The position numbers and the translations under genes are program-made. The notes below the pieces were generated by a model, which did no database searches, was not told where the DNA came from, and saw only the letters and a list, made by a program, of their open reading frames with translations. A stretch of 64,000 nucleotides of DNA from assembly GCA_050246275.1 (NCBI GenBank), contig JBFWWI010000001.1:1116913-1180912 (forward strand), read 5' to 3'. The stretch is from Pyrinomonadaceae bacterium. GTDB taxonomy: Bacteria > Acidobacteriota > Blastocatellia > Pyrinomonadales > Pyrinomonadaceae. Positions 24,211-30,579 of the stretch are shown here, in pieces (position 1 is the first letter of the stretch; every line of letters begins with the position of its first letter).

Positions 24211-24287
24211 ACTTTTCCCCGCTAGAAGTCGAAAGGCAGGAGGTTCGCCTTCTGTCTTTTTCTATTTTGGGTAAGTACAATATTGAT

Positions 24288-25718
24288 ATGTTTCGCCGCA
24301 TCTATATGGACCACAGCGCGACCACGCCGGTCGACCCGCGAGTGGTCGAGGCGATGATGCCTTACCTGACCGAAGCATTCGGCAACGCGTCGAGCATCCA
24401 TTACTTCGGCCAACAAGCCAGGGCTGCGGTCGATAAGGCCCGGCATCAGGTAGCACATCTGATCGGGGCTCGTCCGAACGAGATCGTCTTCACATCGGGC
24501 GGGACGGAATCGAATAACCTCGCGATCAAGGGGGTTCTCGATAGGTGGAACGCGGACATCCTTGTCCGCATGAGCGCCGCTTCGACGCGAACGAGCGCGG
24601 AGCATCCTCACGCCCAAATAGACAATGCGAGTTTCTCCGGAGGAATCGGCGTTGGGGGACGGAGCGGGGACACTCCTGTCCCCATGAGCGTCGCCTCGAC
24701 GCGAACGAGCGCGGAGCATCCTCACGCCCTGACCGGCAACGCGAGTTTCGCCGGAGGAACCGGCGATGGGGACAAGAGTGTCCCCGCTCCGCACATCATC
24801 ACATCCTCGATCGAGCACTCGGCGGTCAAGAACGTCTGCGAAGACCTTGAAAAGCAGGGCTATCGAGTGACGTATCTGCCCGTTTACGAGGACGGTATCG
24901 TCCGCATCGAAGACGTGAAGGCGGCGATAACGGACGACACTCTGCTTATCTCGATAATGGCTGCGAATAACGAGATAGGCACAATTCAGCCGATCGAAGA
25001 AGTCGGAAAGTTTGTAAGAGAACTGCGGGCCGGCGGACAGAAGATCTGGTTTCACACCGACGCGGTACAGGCCGCGGGAAAGGTCCCGATCAACGTCGAA
25101 GAGATCGGCTGCGACCTGCTCTCGATCTCGGCCCACAAGCTGTACGCACCTAAGGGCGTCGGAGCATTGTACGTCCGACGCGGCGTCCGCCTTCATCCGC
25201 AGAATATCGGCGGGCATCAGGAACGCGAACGTCGCGGAGGGACCGAATCCGTCCCGAATATCGCCGCTTTCGGCAAAGCCTGCGAGCTGGCCGAGGAGGA
25301 AATTGCATCGGAATCGACAACGCTTAAAGATCTGCGGGACAAGCTCGAAACCCGCGTCGGCGAGATGATCCCGGACGTCGTCTTCAATGGCGACCGCGAC
25401 CGCCGCCTGCCGAACATCTCGAACATCTCATTTCGCTCCGTCGAGGGCGAGGGCCTGCTCATCAACCTGGATATGCAGGGCATAGCCGTCTCGACCGGCT
25501 CGGCCTGCTCCTCCGGCACGCTCGAACCGTCCCCCGTCATCCGAGCCCTCGGACCGCAGACGCCATCGTCCGCCGGTGGTGATGACGAAGACCGTGCCCG
25601 CGGAGCCATCCGCTTTTCCCTCGGCCGCACCAACACGGCCGCCGACGTCGACCGCCTCCTCGAAGTCCTCCCAACCTCCGTCGAGAACCTCCGCCGCCTA
25701 ACTGCCTCAGCCCGCTAA
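24288..25718 (+). CDS. Cysteine desulfurase (NifS/IscS class) carrying an ~76-aa in-frame insertion
   Basis: IYMDHSATTP, GGTESNN, HIITSSIEHSAV, PLP-lysine SISAHKLYAPKG and active-site GSACSSG are all present. The segment between IKGVLDRW and HIITSS is far longer than the short link I recall for E. coli IscS. Confidence 0.85.
   Translation: MFRRIYMDHSATTPVDPRVVEAMMPYLTEAFGNASSIHYFGQQARAAVDKARHQVAHLIGARPNEIVFTSGGTESNNLAIKGVLDRWNADILVRMSAASTRTSAEHPHAQIDNASFSGGIGVGGRSGDTPVPMSVASTRTSAEHPHALTGNASFAGGTGDGDKSVPAPHIITSSIEHSAVKNVCEDLEKQGYRVTYLPVYEDGIVRIEDVKAAITDDTLLISIMAANNEIGTIQPIEEVGKFVRELRAGGQKIWFHTDAVQAAGKVPINVEEIGCDLLSISAHKLYAPKGVGALYVRRGVRLHPQNIGGHQERERRGGTESVPNIAAFGKACELAEEEIASESTTLKDLRDKLETRVGEMIPDVVFNGDRDRRLPNISNISFRSVEGEGLLINLDMQGIAVSTGSACSSGTLEPSPVIRALGPQTPSSAGGDDEDRARGAIRFSLGRTNTAADVDRLLEVLPTSVENLRRLTASAR
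24554..24785. repeat. Two tandem 114-bp units bounded by three short hairpins, inside the cysteine desulfurase CDS
   Basis: catgagcg recurs at 24569 and 24683 (period 114 = 38 codons). Hairpins: GGACAtcctTGTCC (24554), GGGGACActccTGTCCCC (~24667) and GGGGACAagagTGTCCCC (~24768). Confidence 0.85.
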
Positions 25719-25917: not shown

Positions 25918-27348
25918 TTACGGATTCGCCGTGAAGTCGAACCCCGTTAGCTCGCCGGTAAGTGCCACCGATCTCGGTTCGAAGGTATAACGCCGCGACG
26001 ATACCGCCAGTTCGTAAGACTGACCGGTAAGAACATCATCGAATCGATAGTACCCGAACGTATTTGTCCGAAAGGTTCGCGCGCCACCTTGCGGATCGGT
26101 TAGGGTGACGAACGCCCCCGAGATCGGGCGGCCGGAAGAATCCATCACCCGCCCGGATATTGAAACTAAGGATGCGGTTACAGGACTTGAGCGGTTACCG
26201 ACGTTGTCGTCAGCGAATGCCTCCAACGAGTTAGCTGTCGGGACAAACGGAGCCGTGTAGATCTGGAAGCTAGCATCCCCGGCATATCGGTAATAGATCG
26301 TGCCGACACCAGATTCGGAATCCGTGGCATCAATGGAAACAAGCCCCGTAGCGCTATCCTTGGCAAAGCCGACAGCCGGAGCCGTGACATCCTGCGCCGC
26401 CGCCCCGCTGACCCGAACATGAGCGGGTACAACAACATCGTAGGTACCGTCGCCATTCGAATCGTAGCGAAGATCCGGCACACCTTGCGGGTCGAAGGTA
26501 AGCAGACACTCGACATCAGCAGGCAATTCAAGATCAATGTATCGAATCGCCAAATTGGGCGAGGTATTCCCGACCCCCTTCAGAATCTCAATATCGATCG
26601 AATCGGTCCCCGTGCGGAATTTTATTGTATAAGCGCCCTCGTCGGCCGGCATCGCTATCTCTTGATAGCTTCCCTCACCTTCGTATATCCCGCCCGCAAA
26701 GCTAACACCTGGGACGCCAAGCTCAAACCCGGCATCTCCGATCGGAGTATTTGTGATACCCGATTCATCGGTGATGGAAACTCGATCGCCGCCAGAGATA
26801 GATAAATAGTACCCTTGGTTCACTGTTGGTAATGTCGCTCCAGTCGGGCCATTCTTGTCGCGCGTCTTGATTATCATAGATGTTGTCTTGCTTTGCTGCA
26901 CAATCGACGGTTGGTAAGGCAGATCAAGAATATTCAGAATCTCCTGCCGAACGTCTTGAGCCTTTACGAGTCCCACATGGTCGCAAAGTGCATCTTCCGT
27001 CTTGTTTCGAGAAATGCATTTTGTAATCTCGGCTTCGGTAGAGTTATAGTTCAGACCCGTTTGGCAGTTCTCGATCTCGCAACGCTCGCTGCTCAAGTTG
27101 GGAACGGTTTTGTCACCGATACCTCTTTTCGAACGTAAACGCAACTCACGCCGGGCGTCAAATCGAGGCCTTTTCAACACCGGGGTCGCAATAAACCTAT
27201 CGACCGTATCAGCAGGCTCGAATCCAGTTCGCGGTCGGAGAATTCGAACGTGGCGTCTCGACACTAGAGGCTGCCCTTTCGAAAGGGTCGCCCGAACTTG
27301 TGTCGATAGCGGTCGATCCACGTTGGCATCCTGCAATGAACTCGTCAC
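25918..27348 (-). CDS. Protein with a C-terminal carboxypeptidase-regulatory-like (CarboxypepD_reg) domain; start uncertain, possibly N-terminally damaged
   Basis: The C-terminus ISGRVMDSSGRPISGAFVTLTDPQGGARTFRTNTFGYYRFDDVLTGQSYEL is typical of CarboxypepD_reg. GTIYYRYAGDASFQIYTAPF resembles the chitobiase C-terminal-like motif. The first ~90 aa are Arg-rich and there is no signal peptide. Confidence 0.55.
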   Translation of the reverse strand: MTSSLQDANVDRPLSTQVRATLSKGQPLVSRRHVRILRPRTGFEPADTVDRFIATPVLKRPRFDARRELRLRSKRGIGDKTVPNLSSERCEIENCQTGLNYNSTEAEITKCISRNKTEDALCDHVGLVKAQDVRQEILNILDLPYQPSIVQQSKTTSMIIKTRDKNGPTGATLPTVNQGYYLSISGGDRVSITDESGITNTPIGDAGFELGVPGVSFAGGIYEGEGSYQEIAMPADEGAYTIKFRTGTDSIDIEILKGVGNTSPNLAIRYIDLELPADVECLLTFDPQGVPDLRYDSNGDGTYDVVVPAHVRVSGAAAQDVTAPAVGFAKDSATGLVSIDATDSESGVGTIYYRYAGDASFQIYTAPFVPTANSLEAFADDNVGNRSSPVTASLVSISGRVMDSSGRPISGAFVTLTDPQGGARTFRTNTFGYYRFDDVLTGQSYELAVSSRRYTFEPRSVALTGELTGFDFTANP

Positions 27349-27470
27349 GATTCGATGCGATCATCAGTGAAGTTGGAATGGGAAAATAGCCCGCGAGATC
27401 GCGGATGAGCCAATGGCGGATGAGAGTTAACTCTGCGCGGACTCCCGCCGACGCAGGGGTGCCTCAACAA

Positions 27471-27502
27471 GTTAAGAAAGCCCCTTCGATCGCTCGAAGA
27501 GG
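27471..27502 (-). terminator. Terminator candidate after the repeat-peptide gene
   Basis: On the minus strand: CCTCTTCGA-gcga-TCGAAGGGG followed by CTTTCTTAA. Confidence 0.5.
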
Positions 27503-27579
27503 CCTAGGTGCGGGATACCTTGTAGTGCTTTACAAGGGGTTTCGTATTGTGAAAGTCGATCGATAATCGAGTCTAAGGG

Positions 27580-27897
27580 TTAGTCGCCGACGATGATCCC
27601 GGTCTTGTCGCCTACGATGATCCCGCATGTGCGGTCGCCTACGATGATACCCGTGCGGTCGCCTACGATGATGCCCGTGCGATCACCGACGATGATGCCT
27701 GTGGTAAAGAATGTAGCTACCTTGCCAAGGAATGACGTCACAACGCCGGGGTTTTCCTGTTTTTCACAAGTAGTCTCGTCTTTGCCCGTCGATCCGGTGC
27801 GGTCGCCGACGATGATCCCTGCATTAGCCGCGGTTGCTCCGAACATCAGCGTGAAAAGCATTAGTGTGGTCGGGATGAATCCTTTTAGTTTTGTCAT
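27580..27897 (-). CDS. Small secreted protein (105 aa) with six GIIVGD(R/K)T repeats
   Basis: GGAG RBS ahead of the ATG at 27897. Sec signal MTKLKGFIPTTLMLFTLMFGATAANA|G. The mature part starts with GIIVGDRT and ends with five tandem copies (GIIVGDRT x2, GIIVGDRTC, GIIVGDKT, terminal GIIVGD). Confidence 0.6.
   Translation of the reverse strand: MTKLKGFIPTTLMLFTLMFGATAANAGIIVGDRTGSTGKDETTCEKQENPGVVTSFLGKVATFFTTGIIVGDRTGIIVGDRTGIIVGDRTCGIIVGDKTGIIVGD
27583..27705. repeat. Five tandem 24-27 bp units encoding the GIIVGD(R/K)T repeats
   Basis: gtcgcc[g/t]acgatgat[c/a/g]cc... recurs five times. The copies differ mainly at synonymous positions (Gly GGG/GGT/GGC, Val GTA/GTC, Thr ACA/ACG/ACC). Confidence 0.85.
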
Positions 27898-28076
27898 TTT
27901 TTTCTTCTCCAGTTTCTTCAGTTTGTCCCGGAAGTTGATCGCTTCCTGCTGACCCGTATATTTCAATACACGTGCCACGATTTTCCTGGAGATCAAACGT
28001 ATTTGTAACCACTTTATCTGCTTAACTTACGGTCAGGGTTTCGACCCGGATGAGCCTTGTTTAGGGTTTGGCAGGG

Positions 28077-28097
28077 TTTGTATACGTGGTATACAAA
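28077..28097. promoter_or_regulatory. Perfect 9-3-9 inverted repeat TTTGTATAC-gtg-GTATACAAA in a divergent intergenic region
   Basis: Read directly. A further ACGTATAC copy lies near 28155. The repeat sits about midway between the repeat-peptide gene (minus) and the GGDEF-EAL gene (plus). Confidence 0.5.
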
Positions 28098-28287
28098 TGA
28101 GTTTTGCACTTCGGCTAAGAGTTGCAGTTTCAATTAGTTACGGTAATGGATAGCACGTATACACTAGAATTTGGCTACCTAGTATCCAGATTCCCACGTC
28201 GCCTAAAGAAATATCTATATTTTCCTCAGTTGAACGTGCTATCATTACTACGGCTTTTTACGCCCCACGCTTCCATATCCCTGTTCA

Positions 28288-30579
28288 ATGCAGACCACCA
28301 GCCAACTCCCGGATACGTTAAGGTTTCAGCCGACTGATCAATACAAGGTTGCGATCATCGTTGCGGGGTTGTCGTGTTTGATCTTTGCCCTGCTCACGAT
28401 ACCTGAGGGCGCATTGAGCCTTGGGTTCCTGGCTATCGTGGCATTCGCGATATTCGTCGCCCCGCGGATGAGCCTTACGCTCCCTCGCTCAAAGTTCTTT
28501 ATTAGCTTTTCCGAGTCGATAGTGTTCTTTGCATTTCTCGTCTATGGCGGCGAAACAGCTATCGTGGTCGCGTTCATCGAGACGTTTGCGAACTGCATTT
28601 TCCTGATGCGGAACAGCGGGCTCTCCGGAAAGTGGGTCATCCTTTGGAATTCGGCCTTGGGCTCACTGGTGGCGACATTCGTATTCGTCGCGTTTACATT
28701 TACGTCGAAAGCATATGGTGGGAGTGTCGCTCTCTCGGACACGCGTAATCTGATAATTGTGCTCGGCGTCCTCGCAATAACACATTTCCTCGCGACTTCG
28801 CTCCTGGTCTCTTTCTACAGGCGGATAAAAACGGAAGGCGCTAGCCTTTGGCAGATTTGGAAAAGGGAATGCCTGTCCACATCGATGGCACAGCTCACGG
28901 GTGCCGGGCTTGCAGGAGTGATCTACAAGCTGATCAACTACGCCGATCCGCTTGTGATGGCTGTGGCCGCCGCGGTGGTAGGCGTTTTTTATCTTAGCTA
29001 TCGGCAGTCCATCAGAGATATTAATTCTGCGTTCGAGCAGGTCGAAGAGGCCGAGCGGGAAAAGGCGGAAGCAGAACGCCAGAGAGCCGAGGCAGAGCGA
29101 ACACGGCGTGTGGAAGCAGAGGAGTTCGCAAATCAGCTGAGCGTGGCCCTTGCAAAAGAAGAGCAGGCAAATAAGGCCCTTAGAAAAAGCGAACGCGATT
29201 TTCAACATGCGGCTCTGCACGATTCGCTGACAACTCTCGCCAACCGAAAGCAGTTTGGCGACGTACTTCGCCGGTTGATCACTGATTATAAGGTCGACCC
29301 GTCAAACGAGTTCCAAGTACTTTTTCTCGACATACGCAGTTTTAAGAACATCAACGATACGCTCGGCCACACCATAGGCGACAAGGTTCTCGCCATCGCG
29401 GCAAAACGGTTCGTACGGATGCTCGACACCAAGGACACGGTGGCACGCATCGGTGGAGACGAGTTCGCGATCATTCTCCGAGGGCTCGGCTCGACCGCAA
29501 AGGCAGAAAAGGTCGCCCGCCGTATTTACCAGAACATCACACAGCCGTTTTCGCTAAGCGGCAACAGCATTACGGTGGACATCAATATCGGTATTGCCCC
29601 TTGCGATGTCGAATACGACACCCCGGAAGAGATACTTCGCGATGCGGATATCGCCATGCATTACGCGAAGGAGAAGGGGAACGGGCTGGCCGTCTTTACA
29701 AAAGAGCTGCGGTCGCGGTTTCTCGAACGCGTCCGGTTCGAGATGGACCTCCGTCACGCGATCGATCGCAACGAACTCATCCTTCATTATCAGCCGATCA
29801 TCTCATTGCAGGACGGCCAGCTGATCGGATTCGAGGCCTTGATCCGGTGGCACCACAGCGAATTTGGGCTTATTCCGCCAAGCAAGTTCATCCCTATCGC
29901 CGAAGATTCCGGCCTGATCAAGCCGATAACCGTCTGGATTCTCGAGGAAGCCTCGCGTCAGCTCGTTCGATGGCAGGGCCTCGCACCGGATTATAGATCC
30001 CTCATTGTGAGCGTAAATATCTCCGGCAAACATCTCGGCGACAACGATCTTATCGACGACGTGCAGCGGGCGCTCGAGATATCGAAGATCGACCCTTCAA
30101 CACTGAAACTGGAGATCACGGAAAGTGCGGCAATGGAAAGCCCTGACCACACGGTAAATATGCTGCACCGCCTGAAGCAAGTCGGGGTTCAGCTCAGCAT
30201 CGACGATTTTGGAACGGGATATTCCAGTCTCAGCCATCTGCACAAGCTTCCATTCGATACGCTCAAGATCGACCGCTCATTCGTGTACAGCGTAGGGGCT
30301 GCAGGCGAGAATTCCGAGATCTTGCAGACGATCATTTCGCTCGCTAAGAATCTGAAGATGCGCGTTGTGGCAGAAGGCATCGAGACCGCTTCTCAACTTG
30401 CACTGCTCCAAACGCTCGGTTGTGATTACGGCCAGGGCTTCCTTCTGGCTAAGCCAAAACCGCGTGAAGAGACCGAGGCTCTCCTGTATCAGCGACCCTC
30501 TTGGCTTCCTGAAGAACCACTCGTCGCCTATACCGAGCACATCTCAGAACCCGCCGATGCTCATCTGCCGGTATTTTGA
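28288..30579 (+). CDS. Membrane-bound GGDEF-EAL protein (diguanylate cyclase/c-di-GMP phosphodiesterase)
   Basis: Multi-TM N-terminus, coiled coil (EAEREKAEAERQRAEAER), RIGGDEFAIIL (GGDEF), EALIRW and DDFGTGYSSL (EAL). Confidence 0.9.
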   Translation: MQTTSQLPDTLRFQPTDQYKVAIIVAGLSCLIFALLTIPEGALSLGFLAIVAFAIFVAPRMSLTLPRSKFFISFSESIVFFAFLVYGGETAIVVAFIETFANCIFLMRNSGLSGKWVILWNSALGSLVATFVFVAFTFTSKAYGGSVALSDTRNLIIVLGVLAITHFLATSLLVSFYRRIKTEGASLWQIWKRECLSTSMAQLTGAGLAGVIYKLINYADPLVMAVAAAVVGVFYLSYRQSIRDINSAFEQVEEAEREKAEAERQRAEAERTRRVEAEEFANQLSVALAKEEQANKALRKSERDFQHAALHDSLTTLANRKQFGDVLRRLITDYKVDPSNEFQVLFLDIRSFKNINDTLGHTIGDKVLAIAAKRFVRMLDTKDTVARIGGDEFAIILRGLGSTAKAEKVARRIYQNITQPFSLSGNSITVDINIGIAPCDVEYDTPEEILRDADIAMHYAKEKGNGLAVFTKELRSRFLERVRFEMDLRHAIDRNELILHYQPIISLQDGQLIGFEALIRWHHSEFGLIPPSKFIPIAEDSGLIKPITVWILEEASRQLVRWQGLAPDYRSLIVSVNISGKHLGDNDLIDDVQRALEISKIDPSTLKLEITESAAMESPDHTVNMLHRLKQVGVQLSIDDFGTGYSSLSHLHKLPFDTLKIDRSFVYSVGAAGENSEILQTIISLAKNLKMRVVAEGIETASQLALLQTLGCDYGQGFLLAKPKPREETEALLYQRPSWLPEEPLVAYTEHISEPADAHLPVF

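What the first reader, a model, noticed from the sequence alone, without database searches (positions are those of the whole stretch)
27580..27897. Secreted 105-aa protein built from GIIVGD(R/K)T repeats that are conserved at the peptide level, not the DNA level
Seen: a Sec-type signal with an A-N-A cleavage site is followed immediately by GIIVGDRT. Next comes a ~45-aa spacer with one Cys (a second lies in the third tandem repeat), then GIIVGDRT-GIIVGDRT-GIIVGDRTC-GIIVGDKT-GIIVGD up to the stop. The DNA copies differ mostly at synonymous sites (Gly GGG/GGT/GGC, Val GTA/GTC, Thr ACA/ACG/ACC, Asp GAC/GAT). The peptide sequence is therefore under selection, and the repeats are not simply the product of recent slippage. 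The gene has its own RBS and terminator. It shares a divergent control region, containing a perfect palindrome, with a c-di-GMP (GGDEF-EAL) gene. Inference: the possibilities include a multi-copy precursor released as octapeptides (a signal or bacteriocin-like product), a short beta-strand repeat forming an amyloid or adhesive fibre, or a metal/cation-binding Asp ladder. I do not recognise the repeat family.
Basis: partly seen in the sequence, partly recalled or inferred. Interest (0 to 1): 0.6.

Follow-up and report, generated by a model that had tools for sequence, protein, structure and literature searches.

The report
Secreted hexapeptide-repeat partner of c-di-GMP sensor
This small secreted protein made of GIIVGD repeats belongs to an unannotated family of soil Acidobacteria, and it diversifies in step with the membrane sensor domain of the c-di-GMP enzyme encoded next to it, which suggests a peptide signal and its receptor, a pairing I did not find described.

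Summary
Window 27580-27897 (-) encodes a 105-aa protein: a Sec-type signal ending A-N-A, then six GIIVGD copies whose DNA differs only at synonymous sites.

It belongs to an unannotated family (here "REP"). There are no Pfam or NCBIfam hits. The family has 317 representative clusters, and the 150 listed are all 60-189 aa. In the genomes sampled it occurs essentially only in Pyrinomonadaceae.

Each protein carries its own hexapeptide type (19 types seen). The mature protein starts and ends exactly on a repeat, and 95 of 99 homologues have exactly two Cys.

REP keeps a divergent GGDEF-EAL neighbour whose N-terminal half is a multi-span membrane domain. Among close relatives, DNA divergence peaks over that sensor domain plus the mature part of REP, while both flanks stay conserved. 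Sensor dN is 0.05 where the motif is unchanged and about 0.30 where it differs.

The window's genome holds one other array of this hexapeptide, the C-terminal tail of an S8 protease. That protease sits beside the only paralogue of the sensor domain.

REP has a conserved sigma-54-type promoter.

Best reading (inferred, about 0.4): REP is a multi-copy ligand precursor for the neighbouring receptor. Amyloid, beta-helix and RiPP readings are weaker.

The parts
27580..27897 (-). REP coding sequence (105 aa plus stop). The true start is ATG 27897. The longer TTG-started ORF from 27996 overlaps the promoter.
   Evidence: The start is conserved as MTK(L/V) in homologues, and the conserved promoter and 5'UTR lie upstream.
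27820..27897 (-). Sec-type signal peptide, aa 1-26, ending A-N-A.
   Evidence: Read from the sequence. 96 of 99 homologues have an AxA-like site directly before the first repeat. This part stays 75-83% identical in DNA between alleles whose mature parts are about 50% identical.
27802..27819 (-). Hexapeptide copy 1 (GIIVGD), which forms the N-terminus of the mature protein.
27700..27801 (-). Spacer, aa 33-66, with Cys44 and a weakly predicted amphipathic helix at aa 52-65.
27583..27699 (-). Tandem block, aa 67-105: five GIIVGD copies spaced 8, 8, 9 and 8 residues apart, with Cys91 directly before copy 5. The last copy is the C-terminus.
27963..27977 (-). Sigma-54-type -24/-12 promoter element TGGCACG-TGTA-TTGA, about 65 nt upstream of the ATG.
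   Evidence: It is the only match in the window (0.04 expected) and one of 8 in the genome. The same element lies 65-80 nt upstream of REP in 17 loci, including other genera. rpoN is present in the genome.
27930..27946 (-). Conserved 5'UTR hairpin (GGAAG-N7-CTTCC here; GGAAGC..GCTTCC in relatives), followed by a conserved AAACTGAAGAAACTGGAGAAG leader that contains the SD.
28077..28097 (.). Perfect palindrome TTTGTATAC-N3-GTATACAAA, 100-120 nt upstream of the -24 element. Candidate enhancer (UAS) for a sigma-54 activator.
   Evidence: It is unique in the genome, and the GTATAC core is conserved in orthologous intergenic regions.
28148..28187 (.). Second upstream dyad region (GGATAGCACGTATACAC ... 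GGCTACCTAGTATCC).
   Evidence: conserved GGATAC/GTATAC/GTATCC half-sites in relatives.
27468..27503 (-). Intrinsic-terminator-like hairpin GCCUCUUCGAGC-GAUC-GAAGGGGC followed by UUUCUU.
   Evidence: z = -3.3 for the region.
28288..29022 (+). Sensor half of the GGDEF-EAL protein (c0): about 7-8 hydrophobic spans with short loops and no Pfam match. Proposed receptor for the REP motif.
   Evidence: It lies in the divergence island and its dN tracks the REP motif.
29212..30456 (+). GGDEF (aa 309-465) and EAL (aa 487-723) domains of c0. The GGDEF, EAL and DDFGTG motifs are intact.
   Evidence: The motifs are kept in all 27 orthologues examined.

Best explanation
REP is the extracytoplasmic ligand partner of the GGDEF-EAL protein encoded divergently next to it (c0).

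Proposed sequence of events:
1. REP is transcribed from a sigma-54 promoter driven by an upstream palindromic enhancer.
2. It is exported by Sec, and signal peptidase exposes the first GIIVGD.
3. The chain of six identical hexapeptides is probably cut by envelope proteases into GIIVGD-type peptides of about 572 Da. Candidates are the S8 subtilases that carry tails of the same hexapeptide.
4. Peptides of that size should be able to pass outer-membrane porins.
5. The hydrophobic hexapeptide is read by the multi-span membrane domain of c0.
6. c0 then shifts its diguanylate cyclase / phosphodiesterase balance and so the c-di-GMP level.

The hexapeptide sequence would be the specificity code. It differs between species, and the sensor domain changes with it, as in pheromone-type (pherotype) cassettes.

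What is shown: the anatomy, the conservation, the gene linkage, the co-diversification and the promoter element. What is inferred: binding, proteolytic release, exit from the cell and the effect on c-di-GMP.
For: 1. Family anatomy. Of 99 homologues, 96 start the mature protein on a repeat, 95 end exactly on one, and the dominant motif makes up 88% of copies. There are 19 motif types between proteins.
2. Selection acts on the peptide. Repeat copies differ only at synonymous sites, and the same holds in the S8 tail.
3. Linkage. The divergent c0-REP pair is kept in about 28 of 32 REP loci, including loci whose downstream genes differ.
4. Divergence island. Between close relatives, DNA identity is 80-96% in the GGDEF-EAL part of c0 and in nifS. 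It falls to 45-65% over the c0 sensor domain, the intergenic region and the mature part of REP. The REP signal peptide stays at 75-83%.
5. The sensor tracks the motif. Same-motif pair L030-L031 has sensor dN 0.05 against catalytic dN 0.04. Different-motif pairs have sensor dN of 0.27-0.31 against 0.01-0.05. In L038-L039 the sensor dS is about 2.6 against 0.54 for the catalytic part, which implies old alleles moved by recombination.
6. Independent second pairing in the same genome. Only two ORFs carry these hexapeptide arrays (REP and an S8 protease tail), only two proteins carry this membrane domain, and they sit next to each other pairwise.
7. REP motifs match S8-tail motifs of the same genome: GIYMSD, GILYTD, GLLVSD, GIMMSD+GVLIGD, GIIVSD+GIIVGD. 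This holds in 6 of 16 genomes, against 13 of 240 cross-genome pairs. Codons differ (Ser TCG versus AGC), so it is not recent gene conversion.
8. AlphaFold2 predicts no fold for mature REP (pLDDT 44) or for the S8 repeat tail (pLDDT about 30), although the S8 domain itself is modelled well.
9. Repeat spacing varies across the family (5, 6, 7 and 8 residues), as expected for independent units.
10. A conserved sigma-54 promoter and enhancer-like dyads indicate regulated expression.
Against: No conserved processing site is obvious. Linker position 7 is R/K or F/L/I/Y, and position 8 is mostly T.

Exactly two conserved Cys in 95 of 99 proteins suggest a disulfide-closed intact protein. A precursor that is merely diced would not need one.

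Six of 16 genera with a c0 orthologue show no REP within 1.5 kb, and a few REP genes lack an adjacent c0.

Membrane domains evolve fast in general. The S8-linked paralogue is also less conserved than the catalytic domains.

The co-diversification contrasts rest on a handful of related genomes and are not phylogenetically independent.

The S8 tail scores as a Pfam Hexapep (beta-helix) repeat, which allows a structural reading.
Confidence: 0.4

Rival explanations
1. Intact periplasmic partner. Mature REP (79 aa, closed by one disulfide) stays in the periplasm and binds the membrane domain of c0 as a whole protein. It would act as a multivalent regulator of the enzyme, in the way YfiR controls YfiN or NspS controls MbaA. 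No peptide is released and there is no cell-to-cell signalling.
For: Exactly two Cys in 95 of 99 homologues, one after the first repeat and one directly before a late repeat (80 of 99), which would tie the N- and C-terminal repeats together. A Sec signal without any outer-membrane export genes nearby. The same linkage and co-diversification evidence as the main explanation.
Against: Partners that act inside a single cell have no obvious reason to keep old, recombining allele classes (sensor dS 2.6 against 0.54). Identical copies, free repeat ends and variable copy number and spacing are more typical of multi-copy precursors. AlphaFold2 finds no fold. Three homologues have no Cys.
Confidence: 0.25
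2. Self-assembling beta structure. The identical hydrophobic hexapeptides stack in register (amyloid-like or solenoid-like) to form a fibre, coat or adhesive matrix component. The neighbouring c-di-GMP enzyme would control its production, as curli is tied to c-di-GMP control. Homotypic stacking would explain why the copies must be identical and why REP motifs match the S8 tails.
For: Beta-branched hydrophobic cores (GIIV) resemble steric-zipper segments. Copies are identical under purifying selection. REP and S8-tail motifs match. The S8 tail hits Pfam Hexapep at 46.6 bits. The gene neighbours a c-di-GMP enzyme.
Against: Spacing is not fixed (5-8 residues and long irregular spacers), which does not suit a regular solenoid. 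AlphaFold2 predicts neither a solenoid nor a left-handed beta-helix for REP or the S8 tail. No nucleator, chaperone or outer-membrane channel genes are nearby. This model does not explain why the sensor domain, but not the catalytic domains, diversifies with the motif.
Confidence: 0.15
3. Tail mimic for the S8 proteases. REP is a substrate, competitor or regulator of the subtilases that carry tails of the same hexapeptide. It would bind wherever those tails bind and so tune protease location or activity. The link to c0 would be indirect.
For: Same-genome motif matches with S8 tails that are not due to gene conversion. S8 genes sit directly upstream of paralogous sensor-GGDEF-EAL genes.
Against: In the window's genus the main S8 tails are uniformly GVLVGD/GVLIGD, while REP motifs vary widely (GIIIAG, GIIIDN, GIIINN, GIIIGS and others). 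The S8 gene is on another contig. The divergence island ties REP to c0.
Confidence: 0.1
4. RiPP precursor. The repeats are core peptides modified by the nearby radical SAM enzyme, with nifS supplying sulfur, before export.
For: A radical SAM/SPASM-like gene and nifS lie within 5 kb in most loci.
Against: Neither gene shares an operon with REP: nifS is convergent with it and the rSAM gene lies on the same strand but beyond nifS (and usually the M43 peptidase gene), directly upstream of a glycolipid glycosyltransferase and an SDR gene. REP loci L035, L038, L039, L042 and L046 lack these genes next to REP but keep c0. REP has a Sec signal instead of a leader peptide. The cores have no conserved modifiable residue.
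Confidence: 0.03

Closest known systems
Peptide-pheromone cassettes with a polytopic membrane receptor (staphylococcal agrD/agrC, streptococcal comC/comD, Bacillus comX/comP pherotypes)
   Same: The precursor gene lies next to the gene of a multi-span membrane sensor. There is a sharp hypervariable island covering the mature peptide and the sensor domain only. Old allele classes appear to have been moved by recombination, and the signal sequence and output domains stay conserved.
   Different: The output is a GGDEF-EAL c-di-GMP enzyme, not a histidine kinase. Export is by a Sec signal peptide, not AgrB or a C39 ABC exporter. The precursor holds 3-8 identical copies. The organism is a diderm acidobacterium. 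There is no sequence homology.
Sec-exported pro-peptides of Firmicutes (Phr, PapR, NprX; RRNPP systems)
   Same: A small Sec-exported pro-protein whose proposed active unit forms the exact C-terminus. In Bacillus, extracellular S8 subtilases (subtilisin, Epr, Vpr) are the known processing enzymes (from my own knowledge of the literature).
   Different: RRNPP receptors are cytoplasmic TPR proteins reached by Opp import, whereas here the linked gene is a membrane GGDEF-EAL. REP also has tandem copies and an N-terminal copy.
Multi-copy peptide precursors (yeast alpha-factor MFalpha1, fungal ustiloxin UstA, cyanobactin PatE)
   Same: A signal peptide followed by tandem identical cores separated by short spacers. 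Copy number varies between relatives, and the cores change in concert.
   Different: Those precursors have defined processing sites (Kex2 KR, PatA/PatG signatures). REP linkers are only loosely patterned: R/K or F/L at position 7 and T at position 8.
Bacterial transferase hexapeptide repeat / left-handed beta-helix (Pfam PF00132)
   Same: The unit G-aliphatic-aliphatic-aliphatic-G-D resembles the [LIV]-G-x-x-[STAV]-x hexad. The related S8 tails pass the Pfam threshold.
   Different: REP gives no hit, has a period of mostly 8 (range 5-8), and AlphaFold2 predicts no helix. Canonical beta-helix rungs are degenerate, not identical.
Periplasmic regulators of membrane c-di-GMP enzymes (YfiR-YfiN, NspS-MbaA, LapG-LapD)
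   Same: A Sec-exported protein, or in the S8 modules a periplasmic protease, is encoded beside an inner-membrane GGDEF or GGDEF-EAL protein.
   Different: There is no homology. Those receptors have sizeable periplasmic domains, whereas c0 has short loops. None of those partners is a hexapeptide repeat or shows allele-type diversification.
Functional amyloids (curli CsgA, Fap, streptomycete chaplins)
   Same: Small, Sec-exported, beta-prone and repeat-built. Chaplins also have two conserved Cys. Curli is under c-di-GMP-linked control.
   Different: No nucleator or secretion genes are nearby. The repeats are identical rather than imperfect 20-residue strand-loop-strand units. Spacing is variable, and there is no homology.

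Membership tests
Pfam Hexapep PF00132 / left-handed beta-helix | Profile match above the gathering score | tested here: not met
   Mature REP gives no Pfam hit even at E up to 10. The S8 tail of the same genome scores 46.6 bits against a cut-off of 27.
Pfam Hexapep PF00132 / left-handed beta-helix | Strict 6-residue period (18 residues per coil) | tested here: not met
   Successive repeats are most often 8 residues apart (186 cases). Other spacings range from 5 to 40, and family members with periods 5, 6 and 7 exist.
Pfam Hexapep PF00132 / left-handed beta-helix | Predicted beta-helix fold | tested here: not met
   AlphaFold2 gives REP a pLDDT of 44 with no strands. The S8 repeat tail gets a pLDDT of about 30, although the S8 domain is well modelled.
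Agr/Com-type peptide pheromone cassette | Precursor gene adjacent to a polytopic membrane receptor gene | tested here: met
   The divergent c0-REP pair occurs in about 28 of 32 loci. The c0 N-terminal half has about 7-8 hydrophobic spans.
Agr/Com-type peptide pheromone cassette | Mature peptide and sensor domain co-diversify while flanks stay conserved | tested here: met
   Divergence islands. Sensor dN is 0.05 for a same-motif pair and 0.27-0.31 for different-motif pairs. The sample is small and the genomes are related.
Agr/Com-type peptide pheromone cassette | Receptor is a histidine kinase, with a dedicated processing/export protein (AgrB or C39 ABC transporter) | tested here: not met
   The receptor output is GGDEF plus EAL. 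REP has a Sec signal, and no such exporter is in the neighbourhood.
RRNPP pro-peptides (Phr/PapR/NprX) | Adjacent cytoplasmic TPR receptor (Rap/NprR/PlcR/PrgX) | tested here: not met
   The adjacent gene is a GGDEF-EAL. A Trans_reg_C-TPR gene lies next to REP in some loci (L005, L038, L045, L053) but not in the window.
RRNPP pro-peptides (Phr/PapR/NprX) | Active peptide released from the C-terminus by extracellular proteases | not testable with these tools
   Only the anatomy fits: 95 of 99 homologues end exactly on a repeat.
Functional amyloid systems (curli/Fap/chaplin) | Homology to CsgA, FapC or the chaplin domain, or accessory nucleator/secretion genes nearby | tested here: not met
   No Pfam or NCBIfam hit and no such neighbours.
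Functional amyloid systems (curli/Fap/chaplin) | Forms cross-beta fibres | not testable with these tools
   Needs Thioflavin-T and EM on recombinant mature REP.
rSAM-modified RiPP precursor | Maturase co-transcribed or strictly co-occurring with the precursor | tested here: not met
   The rSAM gene is not in one operon with REP (convergent nifS lies between them) and is absent from several REP loci that keep c0. It has only weak generic rSAM/SPASM hits.
YfiR-type periplasmic regulator | Homology to YfiR, and a partner with a periplasmic sensing domain | tested here: not met
   REP gives no family hit. The c0 loops between hydrophobic spans are short.

The most novel reading that the evidence does not exclude
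Pyrinomonadaceae run a peptide 'pherotype' communication system of a kind I did not find described. Sec-exported multi-copy precursors (REP, and the repeat tails of S8 subtilases) are diced into hexapeptides of about 570 Da. These peptides leave and enter cells through outer-membrane porins and are read directly by a polytopic membrane domain fused to GGDEF-EAL. Cell-cell peptide signalling would then set c-di-GMP without a kinase cascade. Recombining ligand/sensor allele classes would serve as kin or strain discrimination. Several such modules, each with its own hexapeptide code, would coexist in one genome.
Probability: 0.3. Interest if true: 0.9.

Novelty: new variant of a known kind. Interest (0 to 1): 0.75.

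Why it matters
Acidobacteria are among the most abundant soil bacteria, yet almost nothing is known about how they signal. Peptide pheromones are regarded as a Gram-positive speciality.

Here an unannotated family of 317 representative clusters is tied by gene order, by a second independent pairing in the same genome, and by allele-like co-diversification to one membrane sensor domain of c-di-GMP enzymes.

If the link is ligand and receptor, it gives a directly testable case of peptide sensing feeding straight into c-di-GMP in a diderm. It would also assign a ligand class to an orphan multi-span sensor domain that has several paralogues per genome. Finally, it would explain the odd hexapeptide tails on a large group of acidobacterial subtilases.

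Synthetic hexapeptides are cheap, so the central prediction can be tested in a heterologous c-di-GMP reporter strain.

Tried and rejected
- Family searches on REP: Pfam gave only PDZ_6 at E 6.2 and NCBIfam only a histidinol-phosphatase domain at E 0.059. Both are noise. Mature REP alone gave nothing.
- Literature: full-text search for GIIVGD, GIIVGG, GIIVAG and GIIVGN found only an unrelated beetle paper. Two topic searches found nothing relevant.
- AlphaFold2 on REP with 38 homologues gave no fold.
- Left-handed beta-helix reading: rejected for REP on period, profile and model. It is left open for the S8 tails, where the Pfam hit and the AlphaFold2 model disagree.
- Recent slippage or gene conversion as the cause of identical copies and of REP/S8 matches: rejected on synonymous differences and different Ser codon families.
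- RiPP with the nearby rSAM and nifS: rejected on gene orientation and on loci that lack these genes.
- Asp ladder or metal binding: rejected because D6 is not conserved.
- 'REP always accompanies c0': not true. Six of 16 genera with a c0 orthologue show no REP within 1.5 kb.
- The HMM of alignment A1 undercounts divergent members. G074 was missed by the HMM but found by the DNA pattern.
- The search for related loci gave only 12 loci. Most context came from the genome search and the fetch from genomes.
Full report
**1. The observation**

Window 27580-27897 on the minus strand encodes a 105-aa protein. It reads MTKLKGFIPTTLMLFTLMFGATAANA | GIIVGDRT - 32 further spacer residues with Cys44 - GIIVGDRT GIIVGDRT GIIVGDRT C GIIVGDKT GIIVGD - stop.

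The six 18-nt cores differ at a mean of 2 positions. All differences are synonymous: the third positions of Gly1, Val4, Gly5 and Asp6. Ile is always ATC, and copies 1 and 6 are identical in DNA.

The gene has a GGAG ribosome-binding site 9 nt from the ATG. A strong hairpin followed by UUUCUU lies 80-110 nt past the stop. The perfect palindrome TTTGTATAC-GTG-GTATACAAA lies at 28077-28097 in the intergenic region shared with a GGDEF-EAL gene at 28288-30579.

**2. It is a family, and the family has rules**

REP has no Pfam or NCBIfam match. A word-indexed search found 99 small homologues, and the named ones come from Pyrinomonadaceae or other Acidobacteriota MAGs. An exhaustive profile search of 1.84 billion representatives found 317 clusters at E <= 0.001, and the best 150 are all 60-189 aa. 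REP is thus a stand-alone small protein, not a fragment of something larger.

In a sample of 301 genomes across the phylum, the profile hit only the window's own family (7 of 16 genomes; 6 of 7 in the window's genus), plus one marginal hit elsewhere. A DNA pattern for three repeats at 8-residue spacing hit 23 of 401 family genomes, and its reversed control hit none.

Across 99 homologues:
- 96 have the first repeat directly after an AxA-type cleavage site.
- 95 end exactly on a repeat.
- 95 have exactly two Cys in the mature part.
- 80 have a Cys immediately before a repeat.
- Copy number ranges from 3 to 8.

Within a protein one hexapeptide makes up 88% of copies on average. Between proteins there are 19 dominant types: GIIVGD, GIIVGG, GIIVAG, GIIVNG, GIIVGN, GIIVQG, GIIITN, GIIYGG and others. 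Some proteins carry two types, often one at the termini and another inside.

Successive repeats are most often 8 residues apart, but members with periods of 5 (GVILN), 6 (GVIITN) and 7 also exist. In 388 eight-spaced units from 238 proteins, position 7 is R/K or F/L/I/Y and position 8 is T in 61%. Position 6 is G, D, N, S or E, which rules out a conserved Asp ladder.

**3. Gene context**

REP is monocistronic. In 34 loci mapped by ORF clustering, the divergent pair 'GGDEF-EAL (c0) <- -> REP' is kept in about 28 of 32 REP loci. That includes five loci whose downstream genes are different.

The usual downstream genes are nifS, an M43 peptidase, a radical SAM/SPASM-like gene, a glycolipid glycosyltransferase and an SDR. 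None of them forms an operon with REP: nifS is convergent with it and the rest lie beyond nifS. They look like ordinary synteny.

The protein c0 has intact GGDEF, EAL and DDFGTG motifs in all 27 orthologues examined. Its N-terminal ~245 residues form about 7-8 hydrophobic spans with short loops and match no Pfam model.

**4. A regulated promoter**

Aligning the upstream regions of six orthologues shows an almost invariant 110-nt leader. It contains TGGCACG-N4-TTGA, a sigma-54 -24/-12 element, followed by a conserved hairpin and the Shine-Dalgarno sequence.

This element is the only match in the 64-kb window (0.04 expected) and one of eight in the genome. It recurs 65-80 nt upstream of REP in 17 loci, including other genera. 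The genome encodes RpoN.

The palindrome lies 100-120 nt upstream of the -24 element, where enhancer-binding proteins usually bind. It is unique in the genome. This also shows that the longer 138-aa ORF, and the 128-aa database gene call (P0002), start too far upstream.

**5. Co-diversification with the sensor domain**

Over 26 c0 orthologues, mean identity is 0.44 in the sensor domain and 0.72 in the GGDEF-EAL part. That alone could simply reflect weaker constraint. The informative contrasts are among close relatives.

| Pair | REP motif | Sensor identity | Catalytic identity |
|---|---|---|---|
| L030-L031 | same | 0.90 | 0.94 |
| L031-L033 | same | 0.76 | 0.96 |
| L030-L033 | same | 0.78 | 0.92 |
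| L038-L039 | different | 0.56 | 0.98 |
| L031-L032 | different | 0.60 | 0.95 |
| L030-L032 | different | 0.61 | 0.94 |
| L032-L033 | different | 0.65 | 0.93 |

Sliding DNA identity shows an island. Identity is 80-96% in the catalytic part of c0 and in nifS. It is 45-65% over the sensor domain, the intergenic region and the mature part of REP. A local peak of 75-83% sits on the REP signal peptide.

Nei-Gojobori estimates agree:
- For the same-motif pair L030-L031, sensor dN is 0.05 against catalytic dN 0.04, so the sensor is as constrained as the enzyme domains.
- For different-motif pairs, sensor dN is 0.27-0.31 against 0.01-0.05.
- In L038-L039, sensor dS is about 2.6 against 0.54 in the catalytic part. 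The sensor alleles are therefore much older than the rest of the gene, which points to allele replacement by recombination.

This pattern is the signature of specificity-group loci such as agr and com. Caveats: the pairs are few, the genomes are related, and dS is near saturation in several comparisons.

**6. A second, independent pairing**

I searched the family with the c0 sensor domain. It has several paralogues per genome at 25-32% identity. Next to 11 of 13 paralogue loci lies the 3' end of a larger gene carrying contiguous hexapeptides G-phi-phi-phi-[GS]-D, where phi is an aliphatic residue.

The full genes are secreted S8 subtilases of 650-930 aa with C-terminal tails of 8-12 near-identical hexapeptides: GVLVSD, GMVMGD, GIAFGD, GVITGD, GIVMGD and others. 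They lie directly upstream, on the same strand, of the paralogous GGDEF-EAL gene, often with a GNAT gene in between.

In the window's own genome, a genome-wide scan finds only two ORFs with such arrays. One is REP. The other is an 857-aa S8 protease at C7:197815-200385, whose tail reads GVLVGD, GIIVGD, GVLVGD and then GVLIGD eight times. The genome has only two proteins with this membrane domain, and each sits beside one of the two arrays. By rough count, the chance of this happening at random is well below 1e-5.

The eight GVLIGD copies differ by a mean of 3.4 of 18 nt, all synonymous. The tail is therefore under the same peptide-level constraint as REP.

**7. REP motifs echo S8 tails of the same genome**

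| Genome | REP motif | S8 tail in the same genome |
|---|---|---|
| G017 | first motif GIYMSD | GIYMSD, 6 copies |
| G049 | GIMMSD + GVLIGD | the same two motifs, alternating |
| G030 | GILYTD | GILYSD / GILYTD |
| G053 | GLLVSD | GLLVSD, 8 copies |
| G382 | GIIVSD + GIIVGD | contains both |
| G000 (window) | GIIVGD | contains GIIVGD |

Exact sharing occurs in 6 of 16 genomes, against 13 of 240 cross-genome pairs. Ten of those 13 are due to the common motif GVLIGD.

Codons differ between REP and the tail. In G017, Ser is TCG in REP and AGC in the tail. In G053 there are four synonymous differences from the closest tail copy. Recent gene conversion therefore does not explain the matches.

The match is not universal. 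In the window's genus the main S8 tails are uniformly GVLVGD/GVLIGD while REP motifs vary widely.

**8. Structure**

AlphaFold2 with a 38-sequence alignment gives mature REP no fold: mean pLDDT 44, with only a low-confidence helix at aa 52-65.

The S8 tail passes the Pfam Hexapep threshold (46.6 bits against a cut-off of 27), and some homologues carry Hexapep or LbH annotations. However, AlphaFold2 with 45 homologues models the S8 domain well (pTM 0.81) and leaves the repeat tail at pLDDT of about 30 with no strands. A left-handed beta-helix is therefore not supported for REP and is doubtful for the tails.

**9. Interpretation**

The evidence favours the hexapeptide as the functional unit and as the specificity determinant recognised by the membrane domain of c0:
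- The copies are identical under purifying selection.
- The free ends lie exactly at repeat borders.
- Copy number and spacing vary.
- No fold is predicted.
- The pairing is tight and has arisen twice.
- Motif and sensor diversify together.

I favour release of hexapeptides (confidence about 0.4). They weigh about 572 Da, which should be small enough for porins. S8 subtilases are plausible processors, as they are for Phr peptides in Bacillus (from my own knowledge of the literature).

The two conserved Cys argue for a disulfide-closed intact protein acting in the periplasm (rival, about 0.25). The remaining alternatives are:
- a homotypic beta-stacking or amyloid-like role (about 0.15)
- a role as a mimic of the S8 tail (about 0.1)
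- a RiPP reading (about 0.03)

Binding, processing, export and the effect on c-di-GMP are all inferred.

**10. Novelty**

I found no description of this family or of the pairing. The logic resembles known pherotype cassettes. The components do not: a Sec-exported multi-copy hexapeptide protein, a polytopic sensor fused to GGDEF-EAL, related arrays on subtilases, a sigma-54 promoter, and an acidobacterial host. I class it as a new variant of a known kind, with a more radical reading still open.

Noticed in passing
window 24547-24771 (inside nifS, 24267-25718 +): The cysteine desulfurase gene carries an in-frame insertion of two tandem ~111-114-nt copies (85% identical). This makes it 483 aa, against 390-425 aa in relatives. 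The Pfam match is split into two stretches around the insertion.
   Followed up: partly
window 25918-27348 (-): A 476-aa ORF with a C-terminal CarboxypepD_reg domain sits between REP and nifS in this genome only. Relatives (L051, L052, L057) have a ~155-aa signal-peptide-bearing homologue at a different position. The Arg-rich N-terminus here looks like a mis-start or a decayed gene.
   Followed up: partly
own genome C7:197815-200385 (-); also L091 3671-6235, L092 8458-11070: The S8 subtilases with hexapeptide tails have, right after their signal peptide, about 190 residues that match the first AAA+ module of ClpB/ClpA/ClpV (E down to 1e-51). This is an odd domain for an exported protease.
   Followed up: no
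L091-L097; G053, G049, G017, G030: Many Pyrinomonadaceae genomes hold 2-7 S8 paralogues. Those examined each have their own tail hexapeptide (GVLVSD, GLLVSD, GLLMSD, GIYMSD and others). Several sit upstream of a paralogous sensor-GGDEF-EAL gene, often with a 300-aa GNAT gene between them. Whether tail motif and sensor co-vary there was not tested.
   Followed up: partly
own genome C7, about 70-85 nt upstream of the S8 start (about 200455-200470): A sigma-54-like element, TGGTACG-CCGC-TTGA, with one mismatch to the strict pattern, precedes the S8 / GGDEF-EAL pair. Both modules may therefore be RpoN-dependent.
   Followed up: no
L005 8338-10104, L038 8272-9591, L045 9691-11478, L053 10271-12812: A Trans_reg_C (winged-helix) plus TPR regulator gene is inserted convergently right after REP in several loci, and lies a few genes away in L006 and L048. 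TPR proteins are the peptide receptors of RRNPP systems, so this may be worth a look. It could equally be chance, because the family is abundant.
   Followed up: no
L029 (JAJNPX010000071.1): A public MAG contig labelled 'Acidisarcina sp.' carries a REP gene that encodes the identical protein. All other relatives are Pyrinomonadaceae/Pyrinomonadales, so the label is probably wrong, or the record is the same or a near-identical genome.
   Followed up: no
L041 (G245:C1:2531829-2531933): The three-repeat DNA pattern also hit a run of perfectly identical 24-nt tandem repeats encoding GIIGAPAT. There is no REP anatomy or c0 context, so it appears unrelated.
   Followed up: no
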